Below are positions 3,624-20,930 of a DNA stretch of 64,000 nucleotides, in pieces; within the stretch, counting starts at the first letter, position 1; each line of letters starts with the position of its first letter. The DNA comes from an uncultured archaeon. GTDB taxonomy: Archaea; Asgardarchaeota; Thorarchaeia; Thorarchaeales; Thorarchaeaceae. A program made the position numbers and the translations under genes. The notes beneath the pieces are model-generated. The model had not been told where the DNA came from. It did no database searches and saw nothing but the letters and a program-made list of their open reading frames with translations. The stretch is from positions 81,974 through 145,973 of the forward strand of contig CAYWJO010000004.1 of NCBI GenBank assembly GCA_964458565.1, read 5' to 3'.

Positions 3624-4679
3624 TTATAGGGGTCCATCGCCCAGTTCGCCTGCAAAGTGACAGGCCACCACATGATCATTATCCATATCCCTATCCTCTG
3701 GAATCTCTCTAACACAGATTTCCTGTGCGTATGGGCATCTCGGGTGAAATCTGCAACCTGGTGGAACATTAATTGGACTTGGTGGTTCGCCCTTTAGTGA
3801 TTCAACTCGTTTCTTCACCGTTGGATCACCAGATGGTACTGCAGATATCAATGCTCGAGTATAGGGGTGCAATGGATTGAATGCAACCTCATGCGCGGGT
3901 CCAATCTCCATAATCTTACCAAGATACATGATTCCGATTCTATCGGCGATGTATGTAGCGATAGCAAGGTCGTGAGTAATGAACAGATAAGTGAGTCCTA
4001 GCTCTTCACGTAGCTGAAGCAACAAGTTAAGAATCTCTGCACGAATTGATACATCGAGCATTGAAACTGGCTCATCGGCAACCATGAATTCCGGATGCAA
4101 TATGAGTGCTCTGGCTACTGATATACGCTGGCGTTGACCACCTGAGAGTTCATGTGGATAACGATCGATGTAATCCCCTGCAGGTGTAATTGCTACACTC
4201 TCAAGTGCCTCAAGAACACGTTTTCTTCTCTGACTTGGTGTTAATGGAAGTTTATGAACCGTCAGCGGTTCTGCAACAATACTGAAAATACTCTGTTTCG
4301 GATTGAGGGATTCGTATGGATCCTGAAAGGTAATCTGCATTTTCTTACGTAATTCTTTCATCTCTTGTCTGTCCAAAGTAGATAGGTCCTGTCCCGCGTA
4401 CACAACCTGACCATCAGTTGGTAATTCAAGATATAGAACACATCGACCTGTTGTAGTCTTCCCGCATCCAGATTCGCCTGCAAGTACTAACACTTCACCT
4501 TTCTTGATATCGAAGCTCACTCCATCAACTGCTCTCACGAAAAGTTCTTGTTTGTAGAGTAGCGATGATAGGAAGCCAGTGTTTACAGGAAACCACTTTC
4601 TCATATTGCGGACCTGAATAAGTGCATCACCTTCAGTAACTGTTGATTGTGCGATTACACCTCTATCGTCAATTGTCAT
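3624..4679 (-). CDS. oppF: Oligopeptide/dipeptide ABC transporter ATP-binding subunit (OppF/DppF)
   Basis: GESGCGKT, LSGGQRQR, ADEP and C-terminal GCRFHPRC...VACH. Confidence 0.93.
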   Translation of the reverse strand: MTIDDRGVIAQSTVTEGDALIQVRNMRKWFPVNTGFLSSLLYKQELFVRAVDGVSFDIKKGEVLVLAGESGCGKTTTGRCVLYLELPTDGQVVYAGQDLSTLDRQEMKELRKKMQITFQDPYESLNPKQSIFSIVAEPLTVHKLPLTPSQRRKRVLEALESVAITPAGDYIDRYPHELSGGQRQRISVARALILHPEFMVADEPVSMLDVSIRAEILNLLLQLREELGLTYLFITHDLAIATYIADRIGIMYLGKIMEIGPAHEVAFNPLHPYTRALISAVPSGDPTVKKRVESLKGEPPSPINVPPGCRFHPRCPYAQEICVREIPEDRDMDNDHVVACHFAGELGDGPL

Positions 4680-4691
4680 TTCTTCGCCTCC

Positions 4692-5681
4692 TTACTCCAA
4701 ATCCACTGTTAGCTCGCCTCTGAGTTTCTCGGCGAAGTGACATGCTACCCATCTGTCTGGCTCAATCTCGTCGAATGATGGTTCTTCTCTGGAACAGATA
4801 TCTTGAGCGTATGGACATCTCGGATGGAATCTGCACCCTGTAGGTGGCTCAATCAAGTCAGGTGGTGAACCGGGGATTGAGGTAAGTTTTTTCTTTTCAG
4901 CTTTCACCATGCTTGGGATTGCTCCTACAAGTCCTGCTGCATACGGGTGAATTGGTTCTTTGAATACAGATACTACATCCGCAAGCTCTGCAATACGACC
5001 CGCATACATGATTGCCGTCTTATCGCATGTTTCTGCAATAACACTCAAGTCGTGAGTAATCAAAATCAGCGACAGACCCAAGTCTTTCTGAAGTTTTTGC
5101 ATTAGCTTCAGTATTTGGGCCTGAATTGTAACATCCAGGGCAGTTGTTGGCTCGTCTGCAATAACCAAGTCTGGATTACAGGCAAGAGCCATGGCAATCA
5201 TTGCACGTTGGCGCATTCCACCAGAGAACTCATGGGGGTAGTTATGAATACGACCTGGATCAAGACCAACCATTTCGAAGAGTTTAGCGCATCTATCCAG
5301 TGCTTCTTCCTCTGTCACGTTTTCGTGCATAAGAATAGCTTCTGCAATTTGCTCGCCGATTTCAAAGACCGGATTGAGCGCATTCATCGCACCTTGAAAG
5401 ACAATTGCAACATTCTTCCATCGAATATCACGCATCTCTTTCGCACTCTTCCTAATCAAGTCGTCACCCTTGAAGTAGACGTTTCCACCTACTATATTTG
5501 CTGCGGGGGGCAAAAGTTGCATTATTGAGTATGCAAGACTACTCTTTCCACAACCACTTTCTCCGGCTAGACCGACTGATTCTCCTGATTCAAGTTGGAG
5601 GGACACATTATCCACGGCTTTGACCAAGCCTTTCATTGTCTGGTAATACATGCGCAGATTTCTAATATCAAGCAATGGCAT
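4692..5681 (-). CDS. oppD: Oligopeptide/dipeptide ABC transporter ATP-binding subunit (OppD/DppD)
   Basis: [28 protein letters not shown]. Start placed at MPLLDIRNL (5681) rather than 5837. Confidence 0.93.
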
Positions 5682-5900
5682 GTTTCTTTTCTCCGCGGGA
5701 GCTATAAGATGGATTTGGTTTCTTAACAACCATTCCAAGCGAGGCTTGCCCCTTGGTTGGCTTAAATATGTTGCTTTCAGCTCAATGAACAAAATGGGTT
5801 TTTCATTAATTGTATATCCGGCAATTGGGAACTGCAAGTGTTGCCATGCCTAGTGCGAAACTAGTAAAAGGCACTACCCTCATATCTGCTATGTGTAACT

Positions 5901-6347: not shown

Positions 6348-7988
6348 ATGTCTGAAGAAACCAAACAGGCTGGATGGAAAGACCGCAACTTGTACGTTAG
6401 CATCACTGGATTCTGGGGTGAATACAAGAAACACAGAATCGGACTAATTGGTCTATTCGTACTTATAATGTACTTTGGAATCGCAATCTTTGCTCCTGTA
6501 ATATCACAAGGAGTAGATCCCTCACCAACCAATAAGGTTGCACCACCATTCCTCGCACCTAGCTGGATGGCTGTGTTTGATCCAACCGGTGTCGTGACAG
6601 GGGAATTATCCCCCGATCCATATCTTAATGTGAATCCTAATGCAACATCAGACCCCGTTCTTTCAAAAATCAACATTGTAAGGAAAAATGGTACTAATAC
6701 GGATCCATTCGATTATGCGTATGGGGATGGCTATGTCAATCTGACCTGGACGCACACTGCTGGAACTGAATATTGGTGGAAACCTGAGCTTGATAATCTG
6801 CCGTTGGGTCAGATTCTTCCCAGAACTGAGCCGCAGGTCAATGATTTCATTATGTTTGAGCAAGAGCTCCCGTGGTTATACCAGACCATGCCTTCTGATG
6901 TAAATATGACTTTTGAATTGGGTGTGAAGCTGAATGGAGATTTCACGAGAACATATGGAGGACTAATGTTCAAGATTTATATATATCTCATTGATTCTGC
7001 AGGTAATTGGTGGCAAGTTTATGAATCAGTTCCACCTTATGAATCACTTGTTGTAAATCGCCGAATTGACCTGAGTGGTTTTGACGTTGTTGAGGGCTGG
7101 GAAGGTATAACCGGAAGTAACGAAACAGGTTCCGATTTTGTCAAAGACCCTGAACCTTGGGTTAAAGTTGGAGTTGTACTCTCACCAACCCGTAACTTTC
7201 GTGAGAGACTAAGTCCTAGTAATCCAGATGATTTTCCATACCTTGTTTATAATGGAAGTGTAGAAGTCCATGTCACTACTCTGAGTACCATTGCCTATGG
7301 TCCTTATTATGGAATTTTAGGCACAACAGATAAGGGTGGAGACGCGTGGTCTCAACTTATCTATGGGACTCGTATCTCATTGATTATCGGAATCTTGGCA
7401 ACTGGGTTGTCCACCGCCGTGGGAGTCATTGTAGGGCTCGTAGCGGGATATTTCGGTGGAAAAATAGACGAAGCGCTCATGAGGGTCGTTGACTTCCTGC
7501 TTGTCATACCTGGGCTGCCGCTTATGATGGTTCTCGCGGCTTTTCTGGGGCCGACAATAGGAAACATCATCCTCGTCATCTCGATTCTGGGATGGACGGG
7601 GACATCTCGGTTGATACGGTCACAGGTGATGGCCGAGAAGAACAAAGCATACGTTGAGAGTGCGAAGGCCATTGGAGCCTCCGATACATACATCATCTTC
7701 AGACACATTCTCCCGAATGTGACTCCAATCCTGTTCGCAAACATTACCCTGGGTGTCGTCGGAGCCATCCTCTCAGAATCTGGTCTTGCGTTCCTTGGTC
7801 TCACTGACCCAAGTGAGCCAAGCTGGGGCAGAATGCTTGCTGATGCCCAGACCGCTGGTGGATTCAGCAACGGTGCATGGTGGGTCGTAGTCTTTCCAGG
7901 ACTGATGATCACAGCATTATCTCTATCATTCACCTTTATTGGTCATACACTTGACCAAGTACTTAATCCAAGGCTCAGAGAACGTTAA
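6348..7988 (+). CDS. oppC: Peptide ABC transporter permease OppC/DppC with large extracytoplasmic insertion
   Basis: ILGTTDKGGD...GTRISL, EAA loop YVESAKAIGAS, PSWG, LNPRLR; GGAGG SD. Confidence 0.92.
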   Translation: MSEETKQAGWKDRNLYVSITGFWGEYKKHRIGLIGLFVLIMYFGIAIFAPVISQGVDPSPTNKVAPPFLAPSWMAVFDPTGVVTGELSPDPYLNVNPNATSDPVLSKINIVRKNGTNTDPFDYAYGDGYVNLTWTHTAGTEYWWKPELDNLPLGQILPRTEPQVNDFIMFEQELPWLYQTMPSDVNMTFELGVKLNGDFTRTYGGLMFKIYIYLIDSAGNWWQVYESVPPYESLVVNRRIDLSGFDVVEGWEGITGSNETGSDFVKDPEPWVKVGVVLSPTRNFRERLSPSNPDDFPYLVYNGSVEVHVTTLSTIAYGPYYGILGTTDKGGDAWSQLIYGTRISLIIGILATGLSTAVGVIVGLVAGYFGGKIDEALMRVVDFLLVIPGLPLMMVLAAFLGPTIGNIILVISILGWTGTSRLIRSQVMAEKNKAYVESAKAIGASDTYIIFRHILPNVTPILFANITLGVVGAILSESGLAFLGLTDPSEPSWGRMLADAQTAGGFSNGAWWVVVFPGLMITALSLSFTFIGHTLDQVLNPRLRER

Positions 7989-8004
7989 ACTCTCTCTGAA
8001 TGTA

Positions 8005-8044
8005 AGTCTGGGTCCCTCGAGACCCCGACTTCTCTTCTTTTTTT
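8005..8044 (+). terminator. Hairpin plus T tract after oppC
   Basis: AGTC.GGGTC/GACCC.GACT stem followed by TCTCTTCTTTTTTT. Confidence 0.6.
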
Positions 8045-8321
8045 AAGAATCATTTAATCGAATCCCAGATTTCTGGGTTAGTCTATCACTCGAGATCTAT
8101 ATGAATCATCAGTGTTCCCTCGAATTCAGAGAGCCTACAATCAGTGACATCGTTTCCACGAGAATCTTGGATATCAACGGGTGTAATTGTATATAGCTGC
8201 CACTTTCGTACATAGTAGTACCATGAACACTATGTTTATTAATTGCAAAACAACTTACTACCTTGGCTCGCAGTACTTAGTGTCCCTAGGTATTGTATGA
8301 TAATAACAAGGAGCGTTAAAA

Positions 8322-9402
8322 ATGGGTCTACGAGAGTACGTTATCAGACGTGGTATCTACATGTTCTTACTTGTAGTTGCTGTAGTCTGTTTCAACTTTT
8401 TCCTATTCAGACTTCCGACGCTTGTACTTGGTATCAGCCCTGTTGACCTTATGATCAGTGAGGAACTTCGGCGAAACCTCACCCAAGATGCATTGCAGCA
8501 GATCTATGTCCAATTCGGTCTTGTTCCAGACCCAGACATTTTCGACTGGATCTACATGTTCTGGAGATATCTTGTCAACATGTTCACAGGTAACTTTGGA
8601 CGCTCATTTGTATCCAAGACCCCAGTAATGGCTGAGATTGCATCAAGATTACCCAACACACTCTTGTTGATGGGTACATCTTCAATTGTTTCAATCATTA
8701 TCGGTATCTGGACTGGTGTCAAAGTTGCTGCTGATCCCGGTTCACGTAAAGACGTTGGTGCAGTTACTGTCGCGTTGTTCATCTATGCACTCCCAATCTT
8801 TTGGTTCGGAATGCTATTACTGATGGTTTTCGCATTCTATATGCGAACGGCGACGGGTGGCTTATTCTACTTCCCGCTTGGTGGAACAATCGATTATGCC
8901 CTTTGGGGAATCGCAAAGGAGAGCCCCTATGGGGCTTTGATGTTGGCCGGTAATATATTGCACCACCTGTTCCTTCCAATGATTACCCTTGGTGTCGGTG
9001 GCTATGGTGGTTACTTCTTGTACATGAGGAACAATCTAAATCCGGATTACATTGCGAATTCGGAAGAGAATAGACGTCATGACAGAAGACTACATACTGA
9101 CCGCACGAGCAAAGGGATTGGACGAGAACCAGGTACTGTACAAGCACGGTCTGAAAAATGCGCTACTACCAATGGTAACAATAATAGCCATGAATTTTGG
9201 CTTCCTAATCAATGGAGCGACGCTTACAGAAACGGTGTTCAACTGGTACGGGATGGGTCGGTATATATTCACCAGCCTGTTCCAGTTAGACTATCCTGTG
9301 GTCCAAGCGATATTTATGGTAATCGCGATAACAGCGATACTTGCGAATTTCGTGGCAGACCTTCTGTATGGAGTCCTTGACCCGCGAATCAAGTACGGGT
9401 AG
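8322..9402 (+). CDS. oppB: Peptide ABC transporter permease OppB/DppB, interrupted by a 31-nt insert (join 8322-9039 + 9071-9402, 349 aa)
   Basis: The N-terminal part is in ORF 8322-9380 and the EAA loop and C-terminus (DVMTEDYILTARAKGL...DPRIKYG) are in ORF 9052-9402. Removing 31 nt gives ...MRNNLIDVMTEDY... Confidence 0.88.
9040..9070 (+). other. Candidate bulge-helix-bulge (tRNA-type) intron in oppB mRNA
   Basis: Internal 8-bp hairpin, 3-nt AAA bulge, short central helix and long exon-exon stem. The BHB cut geometry coincides with the frame-restoring deletion. Confidence 0.7.
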
Positions 9403-9417
9403 GGCCGCATCAGAAAT

Positions 9418-9458
9418 GCGGATGGGACTGAAATCCATCCGCTGTTTGTTCTTTTTTT
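9418..9458 (+). terminator. Hairpin plus T tract after oppB
   Basis: GCGGATGG/CCATCCGC stem followed by TGTTTGTTCTTTTTTT. Confidence 0.65.
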
Positions 9459-9775
9459 CATTCCTTTTTACCTTTCAATACAATTCTTATAATTATTAAC
9501 CACATCCGTCAGTATCGTGTTCACATTCTTTCACCAATTGTTCGTGATAGGAGGAGAGCGGATGAAATAAAGGTCCACCTACCTCTCGATAATTATTGAT
9601 TGTTTGCTTGAACCCACACTGTTACATTCATTCGCATGTTAGGATATTGACGGTGCAAATTCATTCCTAAGTCAAAATCTTGATAAGTGGAATGCCATTC
9701 GCACCGACCACGACTTCGGGATTTGGTAAACTCACGCTATTTTTCCGAGCTCGTATTTTCGACGAGGAACGAAAG

Positions 9776-11359
9776 ATGTCTGATGAATCCCCACAAATTG
9801 ACTGGCGCGACTCAAACTGGTACACATCAATCGCTGATTTTGTAAGTAAATTTAGACGTCATAGGATGGGACTCATTGGGATAACAATCCTAATTTTTTA
9901 CATCGTAATCGCGATTGCTGCTCCATTTATCGTTCCTTACGATCCTTCTCCCGCAAATAAGATTGCACCTCCCTTTCTTGCACCTGCTTGGATGCAAGTC
10001 TTTGATCCTCTGGGGGTTGTTACATCAGAACAAATCGACAATCAATATCTCGAATCATCACCCAACGTTACTATAGTTGGTGCCCATCAAGATAGATTCT
10101 CTTCAGTTCATTATCCAAGTTCACAAAATAAGAGCCATTTCAATATGACTTGGACGCATGTTGCCGGACAAGAATTGGATTTCCACGAAACACTGGATAA
10201 TACAGTTCATCCTGATTGTATGGATTTCATCTATATGACTCATACATTCGAGTGGGGATTTCAAAGCATGCCCAGTGATGTAAACATGACCTTCGATTAT
10301 GGTGTAACTCGTACTGGTACCTTTGCTACTCAAGAATATAGTGGACTTATGTTTAAGGTTTTCATCTATCTGATAGATTCTTCAGGTAACTGGTGGAAAG
10401 TCTACGAGTCTTTCCCACCATATTATGAATTGATCCAAAATAGACGTATTGATTTAAGCTACTTCGATGTAGTCGAAGGTTGGGAGGGTATGACTTCACA
10501 CCTAAATCAGACCGAAGATCCAACAAAACAATTGACAGTTGCTGTCGTTTTATCACCTACGGATAATTTCAGAAAATCTAGAAGTCCTAGCAATCCGATT
10601 GACTATCCGATCCTCAATTATACTGGGTCAGTTACTGTGCAGATAAAACGTTTGAGTATGATTGCATATGGAGATTACTTTGGTATTCTTGGTACCACTG
10701 ATAAAGGTGCAGATGCATATAGCCAGTTAATATGGGGAACTCGAATATCATTAACAATTGGAATTCTAGCAACAGGCATCTCAACAGCAGTTGGTGTGGT
10801 TGTTGGAATGACCGCAGGATATTTCGGTGGAAAACTAGACGAGATATTAATGAGGGTTGTTGACTTCCTCCTCGTGATACCAGGACTGCCGCTTATGATG
10901 GTCCTTGCGGCCTTCCTAGGGCCGACTATAGAAAATATAATTGTGGTCATATCTATACTTGGTTGGACGGGGACGTCTCGTCTGATCCGGTCACAGGTGA
11001 TGGCTGAAAAGAACAAGGCATACGTCGAGAGTGCGAAGGCAATTGGAGCCTCCGATACTTACATTATATATCGTCACATTCTCCCTAATGTAACACCAAT
11101 CTTGTTCGCTGACATAACATTGGGTGTCGTTGGTGCCATCCTTTCGGAATCTGGTCTTGCGTTCCTTGGTCTTACTGACCCAAGCGAACCAAGCTGGGGT
11201 AGAATGCTTGCTGACGCACAGGCCGCTGGTGGATTCAGCAATGGTGCATGGTGGGTTGTAGTCTTCCCGGGACTGATGATTACTATATTGTCACTCGCTT
11301 TCACCTTTGTTGGTCATACGCTTGATCAAGTACTTAATCCGCGTTTGCGTGAGAGATAG
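9776..11359 (+). CDS. oppC: Second OppC/DppC permease paralog with large extracytoplasmic insertion
   Basis: Same motifs as 6348-7988. Start placed at MSDESPQ (9776) by alignment to the paralog and a GAGGA SD. Confidence 0.92.
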   Translation: MSDESPQIDWRDSNWYTSIADFVSKFRRHRMGLIGITILIFYIVIAIAAPFIVPYDPSPANKIAPPFLAPAWMQVFDPLGVVTSEQIDNQYLESSPNVTIVGAHQDRFSSVHYPSSQNKSHFNMTWTHVAGQELDFHETLDNTVHPDCMDFIYMTHTFEWGFQSMPSDVNMTFDYGVTRTGTFATQEYSGLMFKVFIYLIDSSGNWWKVYESFPPYYELIQNRRIDLSYFDVVEGWEGMTSHLNQTEDPTKQLTVAVVLSPTDNFRKSRSPSNPIDYPILNYTGSVTVQIKRLSMIAYGDYFGILGTTDKGADAYSQLIWGTRISLTIGILATGISTAVGVVVGMTAGYFGGKLDEILMRVVDFLLVIPGLPLMMVLAAFLGPTIENIIVVISILGWTGTSRLIRSQVMAEKNKAYVESAKAIGASDTYIIYRHILPNVTPILFADITLGVVGAILSESGLAFLGLTDPSEPSWGRMLADAQAAGGFSNGAWWVVVFPGLMITILSLAFTFVGHTLDQVLNPRLRER

Positions 11360-11531
11360 AGTGTATCCAATAATCCTCAGTCTAAAAAGAAAAGATGGCC
11401 GATACAGATTTCGATATAATGGCCATTTTCCGACATACCTATGTGTATTAATGCCCAGCATAAGGCTTTTATTGACATTTGTGGAACGTCAGCATCAATC
11501 CGATTCCGACTCGGAAGGAGATAGAGAGAAT

Positions 11532-13466
11532 ATGCTTAAAGACCGTCGACGAGTTCTTGCATTAACACTCGTTGCCGCTTTTGCGTTTATGGCAATTTCA
11601 CCTATATTTGCCACAGCACAATTTACAGTTCCAGGTGGACTTAAAAATGGTCCATATGTGGACAAAATTGTGTATAACGTAATTGAAGGTGACGACCAGC
11701 AGGTCCTCGCTCTACAGAATGACGAGATCGATCTTATCGGTGATATGGTCGATCCAACTCACCTAGCCACTTTACAGGCAGCTGAGAATATTGAGGTAGC
11801 AAACGTACTCCGAAACGGGTACGGTTATGTTACCATTAACACAGCAAAGAACCCATTCAACTACACAGACTTCAGACGAGCAATTGCCTTTGCTCTTGAC
11901 AAGCAGGCAATCTCAGACGATGCTTGGGATGGTTTATCAGAACCTCAAGACTCAATGGTAGCTAAAGTCAACCCGTTCACAAGTGAAGGCCTTCTACCTT
12001 ACACTTACTATGAGGCACAGGTTGCTCTTGGAAATCAGATGCTGGATGACCTCGGAATGGAAATTGATCCCCTCACAACCTTCAGACTCACACCAAATGG
12101 TGATGCATTTGACGTGCTAGTTGAGTGCGCACAGTCATCCAACATTGCTATTGAAGTTGGTGAGAAGGTTGCTGAAGCACTTCGTGCTCTACACGTTGAT
12201 GCAGTATCAGAACCAACTGACTTCTATGAGTATCTGAACAGGCTCTACTTCCACGGTGACTATGACATCGTATTCCTTGGTTCAAGCTTCACCACCTTTG
12301 ATGTTGACTGGATTGCCTATGAGTACTGGTCAGAGTTTGCTGATGAGCCATACTACAACTTCCCCAACTGGCAGAACGCAACCTACGACAGCTGGAGAGA
12401 CCAACTCCTCCATGCGACTCAGTTTGAAGATGTCTACGAGGCAGCCTTCAAGATGCAGGAGATATGGGTCCATGCATGTCCAATGATCATCTGTTATGAG
12501 AACACTCTCTTGTCAGCCTATAGGACCGATAAGTTCGAGGGTCTCATTAACAGTGTGATTGATGGTGTACCTGGATGGTGGACAAACTACAAAGTTCACC
12601 TCAAGCCAGGTCAGTCTGGTGCTCCTTGGAGTGGTACATTCCGCTGGAGTAATCCACTCGACCTTGACACCTTCAACTTCATGACGGGCAGCTCTGCGTA
12701 CACCAATAATGTCCTCATGAATCTCTACGACAGTCTCATGACCATTGATTACAATGGTAACGACATATTGTGGTTGGCGGAGAATTATTTCGCTGAAACC
12801 CACGCTGATAATCCATCAGTGCCAGATGGCTATACCAGATTTACATTCGATATGATTCAGAATGCAACCTGGACTGATGGTACTCCACTGACTGCTGAGG
12901 ATGTTGCATACTCGCTCAACTATTTCCGTGATTCGCCAGCTAACCCATACGGTCCTGACCTTTTGGAGATGACTGCAGCGTATGCTCCAACAACATACAG
13001 GGTTGTAATAGAATTCAGTACTGAGTCATATTGGCATCTACATACTGTTGCATACAAGACCATTATTCCGAAGCACTTCTTCTTGACTATTGGTCTTGAT
13101 GGATGGAACACTTGGGATCCACAGCCTCCAACAGAGGGTATGGTCACATCAGGTCCATTCAATGTGTCTGACTACGTTGCTGGTGAGTTCTGTGAAGTGA
13201 CTTGGAATCCAGACTACTTCTATGGTATGGATCGTGATGAGATTTGGCAAACAACAACACCTGGTCCAACCACATCCACATCCACAACCACGACTCCAAT
13301 TACAACGACTGAGCCTGGAACAACCACTGAAACAACCACAACCACTGAAGAACCAACCACTCCTGTAGCACCTGTACAAGACTTCACCATGGCAATTGTT
13401 GCCGGTGCAGTTGGTGCGGCAGTTGTGATTCTCGTTGGTGGATATGTACTGCTTAGGCAGAAGTAG
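11532..13466 (+). CDS. oppA: Peptide ABC transporter substrate-binding protein (family 5) with signal peptide, Thr/Pro-rich linker and C-terminal TM anchor
   Basis: MLKDRRRVLAL signal, FRRAIAFALDK, ATWTDGTPLTAEDVAYS, TSGPF, poly-Thr linker, TM ending LLRQK. Confidence 0.9.
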   Translation: MLKDRRRVLALTLVAAFAFMAISPIFATAQFTVPGGLKNGPYVDKIVYNVIEGDDQQVLALQNDEIDLIGDMVDPTHLATLQAAENIEVANVLRNGYGYVTINTAKNPFNYTDFRRAIAFALDKQAISDDAWDGLSEPQDSMVAKVNPFTSEGLLPYTYYEAQVALGNQMLDDLGMEIDPLTTFRLTPNGDAFDVLVECAQSSNIAIEVGEKVAEALRALHVDAVSEPTDFYEYLNRLYFHGDYDIVFLGSSFTTFDVDWIAYEYWSEFADEPYYNFPNWQNATYDSWRDQLLHATQFEDVYEAAFKMQEIWVHACPMIICYENTLLSAYRTDKFEGLINSVIDGVPGWWTNYKVHLKPGQSGAPWSGTFRWSNPLDLDTFNFMTGSSAYTNNVLMNLYDSLMTIDYNGNDILWLAENYFAETHADNPSVPDGYTRFTFDMIQNATWTDGTPLTAEDVAYSLNYFRDSPANPYGPDLLEMTAAYAPTTYRVVIEFSTESYWHLHTVAYKTIIPKHFFLTIGLDGWNTWDPQPPTEGMVTSGPFNVSDYVAGEFCEVTWNPDYFYGMDRDEIWQTTTPGPTTSTSTTTTPITTTEPGTTTETTTTTEEPTTPVAPVQDFTMAIVAGAVGAAVVILVGGYVLLRQK

Positions 13467-13597: not shown

Positions 13598-14476
13598 GTG
13601 AATTCAATGAAGTTCGACAGAGACCGTATAACACTCATCATTATCTCACTACTACCTGTTTTCATTGGTTCCTTATTATCTGCTAGCGTTATTTCATCAA
13701 CGGCCATTGGAGAGATTATCTCTGACTCGCGCGCTTTCACTCCAAGTGAGTTGATTATCCAAGCTGTTGTTTCAACGCTGATGGGCGTCTTTGTTGTTCT
13801 TTCGTTGTTCTATTTGATGTCCCGAAAAGGACGTGGCGTCCAGAAAATAGCTGTTGCATTCATTGTTTCTCCAATACTTTACTTGGTTTCATTGTTCCTG
13901 GGACAGTCCATACTAATTTTAATTTTCACAGGCTCAAATGATGCGTTTCAAGGAATATTGCTTGTAGTATCATTAGGAATTTCTATGTTATCCATCGTAT
14001 TGATAATGATCGATGCTATTCCTCCAATGATTCGAAATTTATTCGTTGCTTTCTATGGTAGCACATTTGGAACATTTCTCGGTTTAACAACCGTTACAGC
14101 AAGCATGTCGATTTTGATTCTCTCGTTAATAGTAGAGGATTTCTTCCTGACCAAATATAATCCAATTGCTGATGAGGAGTATATGGACTCAAAGATAGGA
14201 AGTGATCCATTTGATTACACTCGCATTCAATCTGAAAGTGTCGCAGTGGGTGTTGGTGATTTTGTAGCTTTCTCACTTATAGCTGCTCATTCTATAGCAT
14301 ATTTCCCAATTTTTGTTGCAGCCTCGTCAATGCTAATGTTGTGTGTTGGTATTATAATCAATATAGCAATTCTTGCTAAAGTGGGTGAGATATTACCTGC
14401 TATTCCATTACCTGCTATACTTGCTGTCGTACCTTGGTTTCTTCATATTGCCTCTTACATTGCCTTAGGAGGGTGA
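13598..14476 (+). CDS. Presenilin/signal-peptide-peptidase-like GxGD intramembrane aspartyl protease (A22)
   Basis: About 9 TM; first Asp in IVEDFF, then VGVGDF and a LPAIP (PAL-like) motif, in canonical order. Confidence 0.75.
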   Translation: MNSMKFDRDRITLIIISLLPVFIGSLLSASVISSTAIGEIISDSRAFTPSELIIQAVVSTLMGVFVVLSLFYLMSRKGRGVQKIAVAFIVSPILYLVSLFLGQSILILIFTGSNDAFQGILLVVSLGISMLSIVLIMIDAIPPMIRNLFVAFYGSTFGTFLGLTTVTASMSILILSLIVEDFFLTKYNPIADEEYMDSKIGSDPFDYTRIQSESVAVGVGDFVAFSLIAAHSIAYFPIFVAASSMLMLCVGIIINIAILAKVGEILPAIPLPAILAVVPWFLHIASYIALGG

Positions 14477-20109: not shown

Positions 20110-20930
20110 ATTCCGATTTTCTTGCTCAACTTCTCAACAAGTACTTCGAATGCTTTCGCAACTTCAGAATCACTTTCTTCAATTACAAAAGGTGTACCTT
20201 TATCACTGAAAGTAATGACTCTCGGATCCAGAGGAAGTGCTCCCAGATTATCTACACCATACTCCTTTGTGGCTTTCTCAACCGATCCTGAACCAAAGAT
20301 ACTGTAAGAAGAACCACATTCAGGACATACAAAACTTGCCATATTTTCAATGAATCCCAGAACAGGAACCCCCATTTTCTGTACTAGTTGAACAGCACGA
20401 CGCGCATCTAACACTGCTACTTCTTGTGGTGTTGTTACTATACAAACTCCATCGATATCTGGGATGAGTTGCAATATACTGAGAATTTCATCTCCTGTTC
20501 CTGGTGGGAGATCCACAATTAAAACATCCACATCTCCCCAATTCACCTCTGCTAAGAATTGGTTGATCACTCTGGCAACCAAAGGCCCTCTCCACGCAAC
20601 TGCATCGTCTTCATTTCGTAGGAGAAAACCCATGCTCATCACCTTTGTGTTTAGTGGTCCTTTAATGGGGTTAATTCTGTTATTTTCTACCATGGGGTGT
20701 TGCCCATCAAGTCCAAGTAGTTTTGGAACATTGGGTCCGTAAATGTCAACATCCAATATGCCTGCTTGTAATCCTTTCTTCGCAAATGACATAGCTAAAT
20801 TCGTTGCTACCGTTGTTTTTCCTACGCCACCTTTGCCAGATAAAACAACAATCTTGTGTTTGATTGCTTTCATATTCTCTCTAACTTCAGGAGGAACCAA
20901 ATCTTTCATTTTCTCTTCATCAGTAGTCAT
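20106..20930 (-). CDS. Mrp/NBP35 (ApbC) Fe-S cluster carrier ATPase
   Basis: SGKGGVGKT, DVDIYGP, WRGP, DLPPGTGD, ENM..CPEC. Confidence 0.92.
   Translation of the reverse strand: MTTDEEKMKDLVPPEVRENMKAIKHKIVVLSGKGGVGKTTVATNLAMSFAKKGLQAGILDVDIYGPNVPKLLGLDGQHPMVENNRINPIKGPLNTKVMSMGFLLRNEDDAVAWRGPLVARVINQFLAEVNWGDVDVLIVDLPPGTGDEILSILQLIPDIDGVCIVTTPQEVAVLDARRAVQLVQKMGVPVLGFIENMASFVCPECGSSYSIFGSGSVEKATKEYGVDNLGALPLDPRVITFSDKGTPFVIEESDSEVAKAFEVLVEKLSKKIGI

What the first reader, a model, noticed from the sequence alone, without database searches (positions are those of the whole stretch)
9003..9096. Candidate tRNA-type (bulge-helix-bulge) intron in a protein-coding gene: oppB would need splicing to be translated correctly
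Seen: oppB is otherwise intact but shifts frame just before its EAA loop. Deleting 31 nt (9040-9070, ATCCGGATTACATTGCGAATTCGGAAGAGAA) restores MRNNLIDVMTEDYILTARAKG. The insert forms an 8-bp hairpin (9041-48/9057-64, one G-U), a 3-nt bulge AAA (9038-40), a central helix TCT/AGA plus an A.G pair (9034-37/9065-68) and an unpaired AA|T on the 3' side. The flanking exons pair over about 20 bp: CATGA/TCATG, TGT/ACA, CTTC/GAAG, GTGGT/ACTAC, TAT/ATA. Established: the archaeal splicing endonuclease EndA cuts after the second nucleotide of each bulge in BHB or relaxed BHL motifs, RtcB ligates, and cbf5 of some Crenarchaeota is the classic mRNA example. Applying that rule gives cuts after 9039 and 9070, which is exactly a frame-restoring deletion. 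Inference: an EndA/RtcB-spliced mRNA intron gates the only OppB in this cluster, conceptually like the small frameshifting XBP1 intron. The competing pairing TCTA(9035-38)/TAGA(9071-74) could act as a switch. Caveat: the central helix is imperfect and the 3' bulge is open.
Basis: partly seen in the sequence, partly recalled or inferred. Interest (0 to 1): 0.93.

Follow-up and report, generated by a model that had tools for sequence, protein, structure and literature searches.

The report
Spliced tRNA-type mini-intron in oppB
A peptide-transporter gene (oppB) of a Thorarchaeota-like Asgard archaeon carries a 31-base insert shaped like a tRNA intron, and environmental RNA data show exactly those 31 bases removed, so this messenger RNA is spliced, which published work documents inside an archaeal coding sequence for only one other gene (cbf5).

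Summary
oppB (window 8322-9402) carries a 31-nt insert (9040-9070) that shifts the frame just before the EAA loop. About 85 orthologues lack it, including the closest relatives found (87% nt identity, genomic contigs).

The decisive result is in the RNA. Contigs from two separate metatranscriptome runs match this strain with 0 and 1 mismatches and skip exactly these 31 nt. A DNA run from another sample keeps them.

The insert has the same layout as tRNA introns and four other mRNA inserts of this genome (EF-1alpha twice, actin, ahcY): 4-nt central helix strand, 3-nt bulge, about 24-nt hairpin, 4 nt, 2 nt. The motif is relaxed (HBh'/bulge-helix-loop), not a canonical BHB, and a strict model trained on the other introns does not find it.

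The host encodes an (alpha-beta)2-type EndA and RtcB. Exon 2 is conserved (94% aa identity).

Best reading: an EndA/RtcB-spliced, recently gained mRNA intron (about 0.88). The "XBP1-like gate/switch" idea has no support.

This scan reported the same kind of intron before on other Asgard DNA and elsewhere in this genome. In the papers I could search, only cbf5 (Crenarchaeota) and a Haloferax 5'-UTR intron are documented.

The parts
8322..9039 (+). oppB exon 1 (codons 1-239 plus the first base of codon 240, Ile)
   Evidence: ORF and translation. Pfam BPD_transp_1 positions 2-74. 68-86% aa identity to Thorarchaeota orthologues.
9040..9070 (+). 31-nt intron (phase 1). Removal of 9038-9068 or 9039-9069 gives the same product.
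   Evidence: Absent from all orthologues examined. Present in DNA contigs of the assembly and of run X2. Skipped in RNA contigs of runs X5 and X8.
9071..9402 (+). oppB exon 2 (EAA loop and last transmembrane segments; stop codon 9400-9402)
   Evidence: Pfam BPD_transp_1 positions 78-183, E = 2e-26. 94% aa identity to orthologues; dN 0.03-0.06 with dS saturated. The spliced product is 349 aa, the length of the orthologues.
9038..9040 (+). 5' splice-site bulge AAA; cut inferred after A9039
   Evidence: Unpaired 3-nt bulge in the MFE fold and in the BHB-register fold. The cut position is consistent with the RNA joint.
9041..9064 (+). Intron hairpin (h'): 8 bp (9041-48/9057-64, one G-U) with an 8-nt loop
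   Evidence: Base-pair probability 0.93. Occupies the same place as the hairpin in nine other introns of this genome.
9034..9037 (+). Exonic strand of the central helix (AUCU); pairs with 9065-9068 (AGAG): 3 standard pairs plus A.G
   Evidence: This register is 1.1 kcal/mol above the slipped MFE register. T9035 is a G000-specific synonymous state (relatives have C) that makes one of the pairs.
9065..9074 (+). Intronic strand of the central helix (9065-68) and the 3' splice site in an open internal loop (AA|U AGA); cut inferred after A9070
   Evidence: No exon helix lies directly next to the 3' site, so the motif is HBh'/BHL-type.
9007..9029 (+). 5'-exon strands of the distal exon-exon helices (GUGGU, CUUCU, GU, CAUGA, G)
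   Evidence: MFE fold, pair probabilities 0.87-0.99. 18/18 pairs in G000 against 8-15/18 in orthologues, but the helices were defined on G000, so this comparison is biased.
9075..9093 (+). 3'-exon strands of the distal exon-exon helices
6348..7988 (+). Context: OppC-type permease upstream of oppB
   Evidence: Pfam OppC_N + BPD_transp_1.
9680..11359 (+). Context: second OppC-type permease downstream of oppB
   Evidence: Pfam OppC_N + BPD_transp_1.
11307..13466 (+). Context: family-5 solute-binding protein (OppA-like); true start uncertain
   Evidence: Pfam SBP_bac_5.
3624..5837 (-). Context: two divergently oriented OppD/OppF-type ATPase genes
   Evidence: Pfam ABC_tran + oligo_HPY in both.

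Best explanation
The 31 nt at 9040-9070 are a tRNA-type (splicing-endonuclease) intron inside the coding sequence of oppB. It was gained recently in this Thorarchaeota-like lineage.

Proposed mechanism. In the pre-mRNA the intron forms an 8-bp hairpin. A 3-nt AAA bulge and a short central helix (AUCU/AGAG) present the 5' site. The 3' site lies two helical positions further on, in an internal loop held in place by about 18 bp of exon-exon pairing. This is a relaxed HBh'/bulge-helix-loop motif. The host's heterotetramer-type (alpha-beta)2 EndA cuts after A9039 and A9070. RtcB joins the exons and probably circularises the intron. The spliced mRNA encodes a normal 349-aa OppB with an intact EAA loop. 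Unspliced mRNA would give a protein with a scrambled C-terminal third.

Shown: the insert is in the DNA; it is precisely absent from RNA-derived contigs; it has the intron-like layout; the enzymes are encoded; exon 2 is conserved.

Inferred: EndA is the nuclease and RtcB the ligase; the exact phosphodiester bonds cut within the 2-nt ambiguity; circularisation.
For: (1) RNA against DNA. RNA run X5 has a 703-nt contig with 0 differences from the window, and RNA run X8 (another sample and study) a 151-nt contig with 1 difference. Both join 9037 to 9069 with 2 nt of ambiguity, a skip of 31 nt. DNA run X2, a sample other than the likely source, has a 1360-nt contig across 8491-9850 that keeps the insert, with no joint. 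The RNA runs give no cover on the flanking 7800-8296 and 9433-9900, which the DNA run covers, so the RNA contigs are not contaminating DNA.

(2) Collinearity. Pfam positions 74->78 across the insert. Every orthologue is uninterrupted: 23 loci, 0 of 399 other genomes of the phylum with any 1-31-nt insert at this site, about 61 further loci, and the nearest relatives at 87% nt / 96% aa identity on multi-gene genomic contigs.

(3) Same layout as five tRNA introns and four other mRNA inserts (EF-1alpha x2, actin, ahcY) of the same genome, all 29-34 nt. The chance that a random insert fits is about 1.6e-4 to 3.5e-4.

(4) Machinery. A 186-aa EndA subunit matches crenarchaeal tRNA-splicing endonuclease chains (3p1z_B, E = 1.5e-45); I take these to be catalytic subunits from memory of those entries. 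There is a second, divergent 212-aa EndA-domain protein and an RtcB. Published work assigns Asgard archaea the (alpha-beta)2 EndA with the loop that confers broad, relaxed-motif specificity (PMC5829648).

(5) Exon 2 shows no decay: 94% aa identity, 1 unique change at 68 otherwise invariant sites, dN 0.03-0.06 with dS saturated.

(6) The 94-nt region folds unusually well (z = -4.3).
Against: The motif is not a canonical hBHBh'. There is no helix next to the 3' site, and the central helix has 3 standard pairs plus A.G.

The register that predicts the observed cuts is 1.1 kcal/mol above a slipped register, with about 12% against 80% predicted occupancy.

A covariance model built from nine other introns of this genome, with the outer helix required, scores the site below 0 bits and does not list it among the window's hits.

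No orthologous intron exists, so covariation cannot be tested.

The RNA and DNA runs come from different samples and are contigs, not raw reads. Splicing efficiency, unspliced precursor and the circular intron were therefore not seen.

EndA cleavage itself is inferred, not shown.
Confidence: 0.88

Rival explanations
1. DNA polymorphism: part of the population carries an oppB allele without the 31 nt, and the RNA-run contigs derive from that allele rather than from splicing.
For: The RNA runs (2020 samples S5, S8) and the DNA runs laid or assembled (S1, S2) are different samples. Insert-free oppB is the state of every relative.
Against: The X5 contig is identical to this strain over 703 nt, whereas the nearest insert-free relatives differ at 13% of positions. 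No insert-free DNA contig was seen in X2. The deletion would have to coincide exactly with BHB-rule cut sites. EF-1alpha, actin and ahcY of the same genome carry the same kind of insert.
Confidence: 0.04
2. Library or assembly artefact: reverse transcriptase jumped across the stable hairpin (AA/AA microhomology), or the RNA assembler collapsed the hairpin, creating a false joint.
For: The skipped segment is a strong hairpin flanked by a 2-nt direct repeat and by exon-exon pairing, a context known to favour template switching (general knowledge). Only contigs, not reads, were available.
Against: Two runs from different samples and studies show the same joint as the only assembled form at this place. 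Microhomology of 2 nt is very short for such jumps. The same assembler kept the insert in the DNA run. The product is exactly frame-restoring and matches all orthologues.
Confidence: 0.03
3. Decaying pseudogene: a 31-nt insertion mutation inactivated oppB and there is no functional rescue.
For: The insert is unique to this genome and the gene reads as frameshifted. The genome has other, distant permease paralogues at 27-31% identity.
Against: RNA contigs lack the insert. Exon 2 is intact, ends at the orthologous stop and is 94% identical to orthologues. The insert has the intron layout. It is the only OppB-type gene beside two OppC genes in this cluster.
Confidence: 0.02
4. Recoding at the ribosome (programmed frameshift or translational bypass of the hairpin, as in phage T4 gene 60) rather than RNA splicing.
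For: A hairpin directly after the break and a need to change frame by +1.
Against: There are no matching take-off and landing codons in the required frames: CTA or AAT at 9036-41 against ATA at 9070-72 (read). The 31 nt are missing from the RNA itself.
Confidence: 0.01

Closest known systems
cbf5 pre-mRNA intron of Crenarchaeota (Aeropyrum, Sulfolobales, Desulfurococcales; Watanabe 2002, Yoshinari 2006, Yokobori 2009 = PMC2738675)
   Same: A small intron inside a protein-coding sequence, mostly with an unconventional (relaxed) BHB. Predicted cuts lie between the 2nd and 3rd bulge residues. It is processed by a hetero-oligomeric splicing endonuclease, has a patchy phylogenetic distribution (gain and loss), and also sits between the first and second letter of a codon.
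   Different: A different gene (ABC permease, not an RNA-modification enzyme) and a different phylum (Asgard/Thorarchaeota-like). It is confined to one lineage rather than shared by orders. Evidence here is metatranscriptome contigs, not cDNA cloning or in-vitro cleavage.
Archaeal tRNA introns, including non-canonical HBh'/BHL types cut by (alpha-beta)2 EndA (PMC5829648), and this genome's own tRNA introns
   Same: The same layout and size as tRNA-Thr, Leu, Ala (x2) and Gln introns of this genome: 4-nt helix strand, 3-nt bulge, hairpin, 4 nt, 2 nt; 29-34 nt. The same presumed enzymes.
   Different: The host RNA is an mRNA. The outer exon helix is not adjacent to the 3' site, so a strict tRNA-intron-trained model does not recognise it. 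The hairpin loop lacks the (G)ATTTCC motif seen in several of the others.
BHB intron in the 5' UTR of HVO_1309, Haloferax volcanii (PMC7714728)
   Same: An EndA-type intron in an mRNA, detected through RNA data.
   Different: That intron is in the untranslated leader (46 nt) and does not interrupt a reading frame. Its host has a different, narrower-specificity EndA type (my knowledge of haloarchaeal EndA, not checked here).
HAC1/XBP1 unconventional splicing (IRE1 nuclease, RtcB or Trl1 ligase) in eukaryotes
   Different: No IRE1-type RNase domain was found, though that search had no positive control. The recognition motif is different (twin stem-loops, not bulge-helix). There is no evidence of stress-regulated splicing here.

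Membership tests
Archaeal splicing-endonuclease (BHB-type) intron | The intervening sequence is present in DNA and precisely absent from the mature RNA | tested here: met
   The DNA contig of run X2 keeps 9040-9070. RNA contigs of runs X5 and X8 skip 31 nt at 9037->9069 (+2 ambiguity).
Archaeal splicing-endonuclease (BHB-type) intron | Canonical hBHBh': two 3-nt bulges on opposite strands, separated by a 4-bp helix and closed by helices on both sides | tested here: not met
   The 3' site lies in an open internal loop. The central helix has 3 standard pairs plus A.G. The strict covariance model from nine other introns scores below 0 bits.
Archaeal splicing-endonuclease (BHB-type) intron | Relaxed core (HBh'/BHL): one well-formed 3-nt bulge flanked by the intron helix and a roughly 4-bp helix, with both cuts after the 2nd nucleotide, 4 bp apart | tested here: met
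   The AAA bulge, the 8-bp hairpin and the AUCU/AGAG helix predict 9039|9040 and 9070|9071, which equals the observed 31-nt skip. The layout is identical to nine other introns. A random insert fits in 1.6e-4 of shuffles. Caveat: a slipped register is 1.1 kcal/mol more stable.
Archaeal splicing-endonuclease (BHB-type) intron | The host encodes a splicing endonuclease able to cut relaxed motifs ((alpha-beta)2 or epsilon2 type) and an RtcB ligase | tested here: met
   Two EndA-domain genes. One (186 aa) has Tyr, His and Lys at the catalytic spacing (by my reading) and matches 3p1z_B at E = 1.5e-45. The other (212 aa) lacks the His. RtcB scores 589 bits. The Asgard EndA type is as published in PMC5829648.
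Archaeal splicing-endonuclease (BHB-type) intron | Cleavage by EndA giving 2',3'-cyclic phosphate and 5'-OH ends, and a circular excised intron | not testable with these tools
   Needs an in-vitro assay or circRNA/small-RNA reads.
cbf5-type pre-mRNA intron (orthologous intron) | Located in cbf5 at the catalytic-Asp codon of Crenarchaeota | tested here: not met
   The host gene is an OppB-type ABC permease (Pfam BPD_transp_1) in a Thorarchaeota-like genome. It works like the cbf5 intron but is not the same intron.
Self-splicing group I / group II intron | Ribozyme core of hundreds of nucleotides, recognisable by Rfam models | tested here: not met
   The insert is 31 nt. There is no Rfam match at gathering score anywhere in the window.
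IRE1-dependent (HAC1/XBP1-type) splicing | IRE1 kinase-RNase in the host; twin 7-nt-loop hairpins at both splice sites; stress-regulated | tested here: inconclusive
   No Ribonuc_2-5A domain was found, but the control genomes did not ring either. The structure has one hairpin, not twin splice-site loops. Regulation was not testable.
Translational bypass / programmed frameshift | mRNA retains the gap; matched take-off and landing codons or a slippery site | tested here: not met
   The RNA lacks the 31 nt. There are no matched codons in the required frames (read).

The most novel reading that the evidence does not exclude
EndA/RtcB splicing of messenger RNAs is a routine and, for some genes, obligatory step of gene expression in this Thorarchaeota-like archaeon: EF-1alpha (two introns), actin, AhcY and OppB. 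Introns are still being gained in coding sequences. The oppB intron is younger than the split from relatives that are 87% identical in DNA. If so, the closest archaeal relatives of eukaryotes have an active, protein-enzyme-based process of intron gain into protein genes and a need to splice before translation.
Probability: 0.6. Interest if true: 0.85.

Novelty: new member of a known kind. Interest (0 to 1): 0.74.

Why it matters
Splicing of protein-coding messages by the tRNA-splicing enzymes is documented in the papers I could search for one archaeal coding sequence only (cbf5, Crenarchaeota) and one 5' UTR (Haloferax). A 2026 preprint on Asgard tRNA introns does not treat mRNAs.

Here an ordinary membrane-transporter gene of an Asgard archaeon shows the process with RNA-level evidence at the predicted nucleotides.

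Because the intron is absent from all close relatives, it is a recent gain. That makes the birth of introns in coding sequence something that can be studied by comparison.

It has practical consequences. Gene callers will annotate such genes as frameshifted pseudogenes or fragments; the collection holds the wrong 352-aa product of this gene (P0002). Completeness and metabolic inferences for Asgard genomes can therefore be distorted.

It also raises the question of how splicing is coordinated with coupled transcription and translation in the lineage nearest to eukaryotes.

Tried and rejected
(1) A genome-wide descriptor scan (central helix >=3/4, stem >=8/9, L 24-45) combined with open-frame and codon-usage filters had no useful specificity. 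Observed counts were about equal to expected (12 against 6 at L = 31). The filters missed the verified cases, because exons were too short or codon scores fell just under threshold. No genome-wide intron count is claimed.

(2) The strict covariance model R1 did not recover the oppB site. A trimmed core alignment for a relaxed model was misaligned by MAFFT and abandoned.

(3) Same-site introns for a covariation test: none in 399 other genomes of the phylum and none in metagenome contigs. The six pattern hits there are one unrelated sequence.

(4) Source of the intron. There is no second copy in the genome at 16-mer level. A 15-mer match on contig C18 lies inside an ordinary ORF on the other strand, so it is chance. 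No copy with <=3 mismatches exists in 85 family genomes.

(5) The exact insert-free or insert-containing G000-type junction was not found in metagenome contigs.

(6) The exon-exon complementarity comparison (18/18 in G000 against 8-15/18) is biased, because the helices were defined on G000. Exon-only folding energy puts G000 only among the top three of 24.

(7) No Rfam family matches in the window.

(8) The IRE1-domain search lacked a positive control.

(9) In RNA run X10 only contigs of a 90-95% relative were laid, and none crossed the junction.
Full report
THE OBSERVATION

The window carries an oligopeptide-type ABC transporter cluster. Two OppD/F-like ATPase genes lie on the minus strand (3624-5837). 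On the plus strand follow an OppC-type permease (6348-7988), the OppB-type gene in question (8322-9402), a second OppC-type permease (9680-11359) and a family-5 binding protein.

The oppB frame that starts at 8322 reads family-typical sequence up to ...GGYGGYFLYMRNNL and then unrelated residues. The rest of the protein (IDVMTEDYILTARAKG..., the EAA loop and the last membrane segments) continues in the +1 frame to a stop at 9400-9402. Pfam's BPD_transp_1 profile is matched up to position 74 by the first part and from position 78 by the second. Nothing is missing and there is no room for extra residues. Twenty-three orthologues from the same family read YMRNNLIDVMTEDYILTARAKG without interruption.

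The break is therefore a real 31-nt insertion, 9040-9070. Removal of 9038-9068 or 9039-9069 gives the same product because of an AA repeat. The insert occurs once in the 3.73-Mb assembly.

THE STRUCTURE

The z-score is -4.3 and none of 200 dinucleotide shuffles folds as well.

The fold contains:
- the 8-bp intron hairpin;
- the AAA bulge 9038-40;
- a 3-bp helix involving UCU 9035-37;
- about 18 bp of pairing between the two exons.

Two points differ from a textbook bulge-helix-bulge.

First, no exon helix abuts the 3' splice site, which lies in an internal loop.

Second, the energy model prefers UCU paired with AGA 9067-69 (about 80% occupancy). The register that predicts the observed cuts pairs UCU with 9065-67, plus A9034.G9068. 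It is 1.1 kcal/mol less stable, with about 12% occupancy.

The motif is thus a relaxed HBh'/bulge-helix-loop form. Published work says only (alpha-beta)2- and epsilon2-type endonucleases cut this kind (PMC5829648).

THE DECISIVE EVIDENCE: RNA AGAINST DNA

Fourteen public runs hold parts of the gene, all from salt-marsh or marine sediment metagenomes. Three are metatranscriptomes. I laid three RNA runs and one DNA run from a sample other than the probable source on 7800-9900.

- RNA run X5 has a 703-nt contig with no difference from the window. It covers 8513-9037 and continues at 9069-9246.
- RNA run X8, from another sample and study, has a 151-nt contig with one difference and the same joint.
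- DNA run X2 has a 1360-nt contig across 8491-9850 with no difference and no gap, so the insert is in DNA in a second sample.
- The protein collection also holds the unspliced 352-aa product on two contigs.
- The RNA runs give no cover on the flanking intergenic and neighbouring-gene stretches that the DNA run covers. This argues that the RNA contigs come from transcripts and not from contaminating DNA.

Limits. These are contigs, which hide minor forms. DNA and RNA come from different samples. No start, end or abundance can be read from them.

IS THE GENE STILL UNDER SELECTION?

The spliced product is 349 aa, the length of the orthologues. Exon 2 is 94% identical to the nearest genera, against 85% for exon 1. 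It has one unique change at 68 otherwise invariant sites, within the 0-2 range of the other genomes. dN is 0.03-0.06 while synonymous sites are saturated. There is no sign of decay downstream of the insert.

HOW OLD IS IT, AND WHERE DID IT COME FROM?

No other genome has any 1-31-nt insert at this site:
- 0 of 399 other genomes of the phylum, 85 of them in the same family;
- none of about 61 further Thorarchaeota/Promethearchaeota loci;
- none in the metagenome contig collection, where the six pattern hits are one unrelated sequence.

The nearest relatives found are 96% identical in protein and 87% in DNA. They sit on multi-gene genomic contigs and are uninterrupted. The intron is therefore younger than that split.

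No related copy of the intron sequence was found in this genome or in 85 family genomes. Its source is unknown.

Three of the four exonic positions at which G000 differs from both nearest lineages are synonymous changes that create or improve a pair in the splicing structure:
- T9018 with A9084;
- C9023 with G9081;
- T9035 with A9067.

This fits adaptation of the flanks to splicing. The numbers are small and the structure was defined on G000, so I count it as weak evidence. The broader comparison carries the same bias.

THE CLASS IT BELONGS TO

Notes of this scan pointed to similar inserts elsewhere in this genome and in other Asgard genomes. I checked the ones in this genome myself.

- The EF-1alpha-like gene on contig C45 carries inserts of 31 and 30 nt.
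- An actin gene on C1 carries 30 nt with an in-frame stop.
- ahcY on C1 carries 31 nt.
- In each case the Pfam match or the reading is collinear across the insert.

ARAGORN finds introns in 22 of 32 predicted tRNA genes. Several are clean canonical BHB introns of 29-34 nt.

All ten introns, oppB included, share one layout: four exonic nucleotides of the central helix; a 3-nt bulge cut after its second base; a hairpin starting at intron base 2; four nucleotides of the central helix; and two more bases before the 3' cut.

With the boundaries fixed independently by homology and RNA, a shuffled insert meets this layout in 31 of 200,000 trials. The genome-wide rate is 3.5e-4 per position.

Against this, a covariance model built from the other nine, with the adjacent outer helix required, scores its own training introns at 23-43 bits but the oppB site below zero. 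oppB is the most relaxed member. It also lacks the (G)ATTTCC loop motif shared by several of the others.

THE MACHINERY

The genome encodes two proteins with both tRNA-intron-endonuclease domains.

- One (186 aa) has Tyr, His and Lys at the spacing of the catalytic triad (my reading). It matches crenarchaeal tRNA-splicing endonuclease chains of similar length (3p1z_B, 3ajv_B, 2cv8_A, 2zyz_B) at E = 1e-45 to 1e-34; that these are catalytic subunits is from my memory of the entries.
- The other (212 aa) is divergent and lacks the His, as a structural beta subunit would.
- RtcB is present at 589 bits.

This matches the published assignment of (alpha-beta)2 EndA with the specificity-broadening loop to Asgard archaea (PMC5829648).

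MOST LIKELY MECHANISM

oppB is transcribed with the intron. The hairpin, bulge and short helix, held by the exon-exon pairing, are recognised by (alpha-beta)2 EndA. The enzyme cuts after A9039 and A9070. RtcB ligates the exons. The spliced mRNA is translated into a normal permease. Unspliced mRNA would give a 352-aa product without EAA loop or C-terminal helices.

Shown: insert in DNA; exact removal in RNA; layout; enzymes encoded; conserved exon 2.

Inferred: which enzymes act; the exact bonds within the 2-nt ambiguity; the fate of the intron.

RIVALS

- An insert-free DNA allele of the same strain (0.04).
- A reverse-transcription or assembly artefact (0.03).
- A dead pseudogene (0.02).
- Ribosomal recoding (0.01).

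All are made unlikely by the combination of two concordant RNA runs, identity of the RNA contigs to this strain, retention in DNA, the intron layout and the same kind of insert in EF-1alpha and actin.

The regulatory "gate" reading is not excluded but has no support. I put it near 0.1.

COMPARISON WITH WHAT IS KNOWN

The process works like the cbf5 pre-mRNA intron of Crenarchaeota, which also has mostly unconventional BHB motifs cut by a hetero-oligomeric endonuclease and a patchy distribution (PMC2738675). Schwarz et al. 2020 state that cbf5 was the only additional BHB intron reported in an archaeal mRNA before their 5'-UTR case in Haloferax (PMC7714728).

Four full-text searches found no paper that describes such introns in Asgard protein genes. 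A preprint of October 2026 on Asgard tRNA introns does not treat mRNAs.

I therefore file it as a new member of a known kind, in a new phylum and gene. It has direct RNA support and a demonstrably recent origin. This scan has reported the same phenomenon before on other Asgard DNA and on other contigs of this genome.

Noticed in passing
L004 (G009:C1:124110-127826), minus strand, about 70 nt after the oppB stop: A related Thorarchaeote has, directly downstream of its intact oppB, an orphan second copy of the oppB 3' part (126-aa frame). Its homology begins at the codon boundary (Val/Ile-Asp-Val-Met...) where the G000 intron sits. It is preceded by a terminator-like hairpin and a T-run. The coincidence of the duplication breakpoint with the intron site is unexplained.
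   Followed up: partly
G000 contigs C45:20259-20289 and 20426-20455; C1:109606-109635 (minus); C1:187509-187539: The EF-1alpha-like gene (two inserts of 31 and 30 nt), an actin gene (30 nt with an in-frame stop) and ahcY (31 nt) carry inserts with the same layout as the oppB intron. Pfam matches are collinear across them.
   Followed up: partly
G000, introns listed: Several introns of tRNA genes (Thr, Ala-CGC) and of mRNAs (EF-1alpha x2, actin) share a hairpin-loop motif (G)ATTTCC / CTTTCC. This hints at a common origin or a shared recognition element. The oppB intron lacks it.
   Followed up: no
G000 whole genome: ARAGORN predicts introns in 22 of 32 detected tRNA genes. Only 32 tRNAs are found in a 93%-complete genome, which suggests further tRNA genes hidden by non-canonical introns.
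   Followed up: no
G000 contig C45, about 20.58-20.69 kb: The EF-1alpha-like gene contains a run of N with the same 21 residues (KKGEFEAGIGPGGQTKEHAYL) encoded on both sides. This is a scaffolding duplication artefact, not biology.
   Followed up: no
window 8315-9400 and 9406-9460: In all three RNA runs the contigs cover only oppB (about 8315 to 9400) and not the neighbouring oppC genes or spacers. A hairpin followed by a T-run lies just after the stop. This is a weak hint of a separate oppB transcript, since contigs cannot show true ends.
   Followed up: no
window 6348-7988 and 9680-11359: Two paralogous OppC-type permeases with long N-terminal extracytoplasmic inserts flank a single OppB. 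In the closest relative's contig (L143) a NUDIX gene on the opposite strand sits between oppB and the second oppC, where G000 has only a spacer.
   Followed up: no
window 13598-14476: A 292-aa ORF has a sub-threshold match to the C-terminal part of Pfam Presenilin (E = 7.6e-6, 25.4 bits against a cut-off of 34.3). It may be an archaeal presenilin/signal-peptide-peptidase homologue.
   Followed up: no
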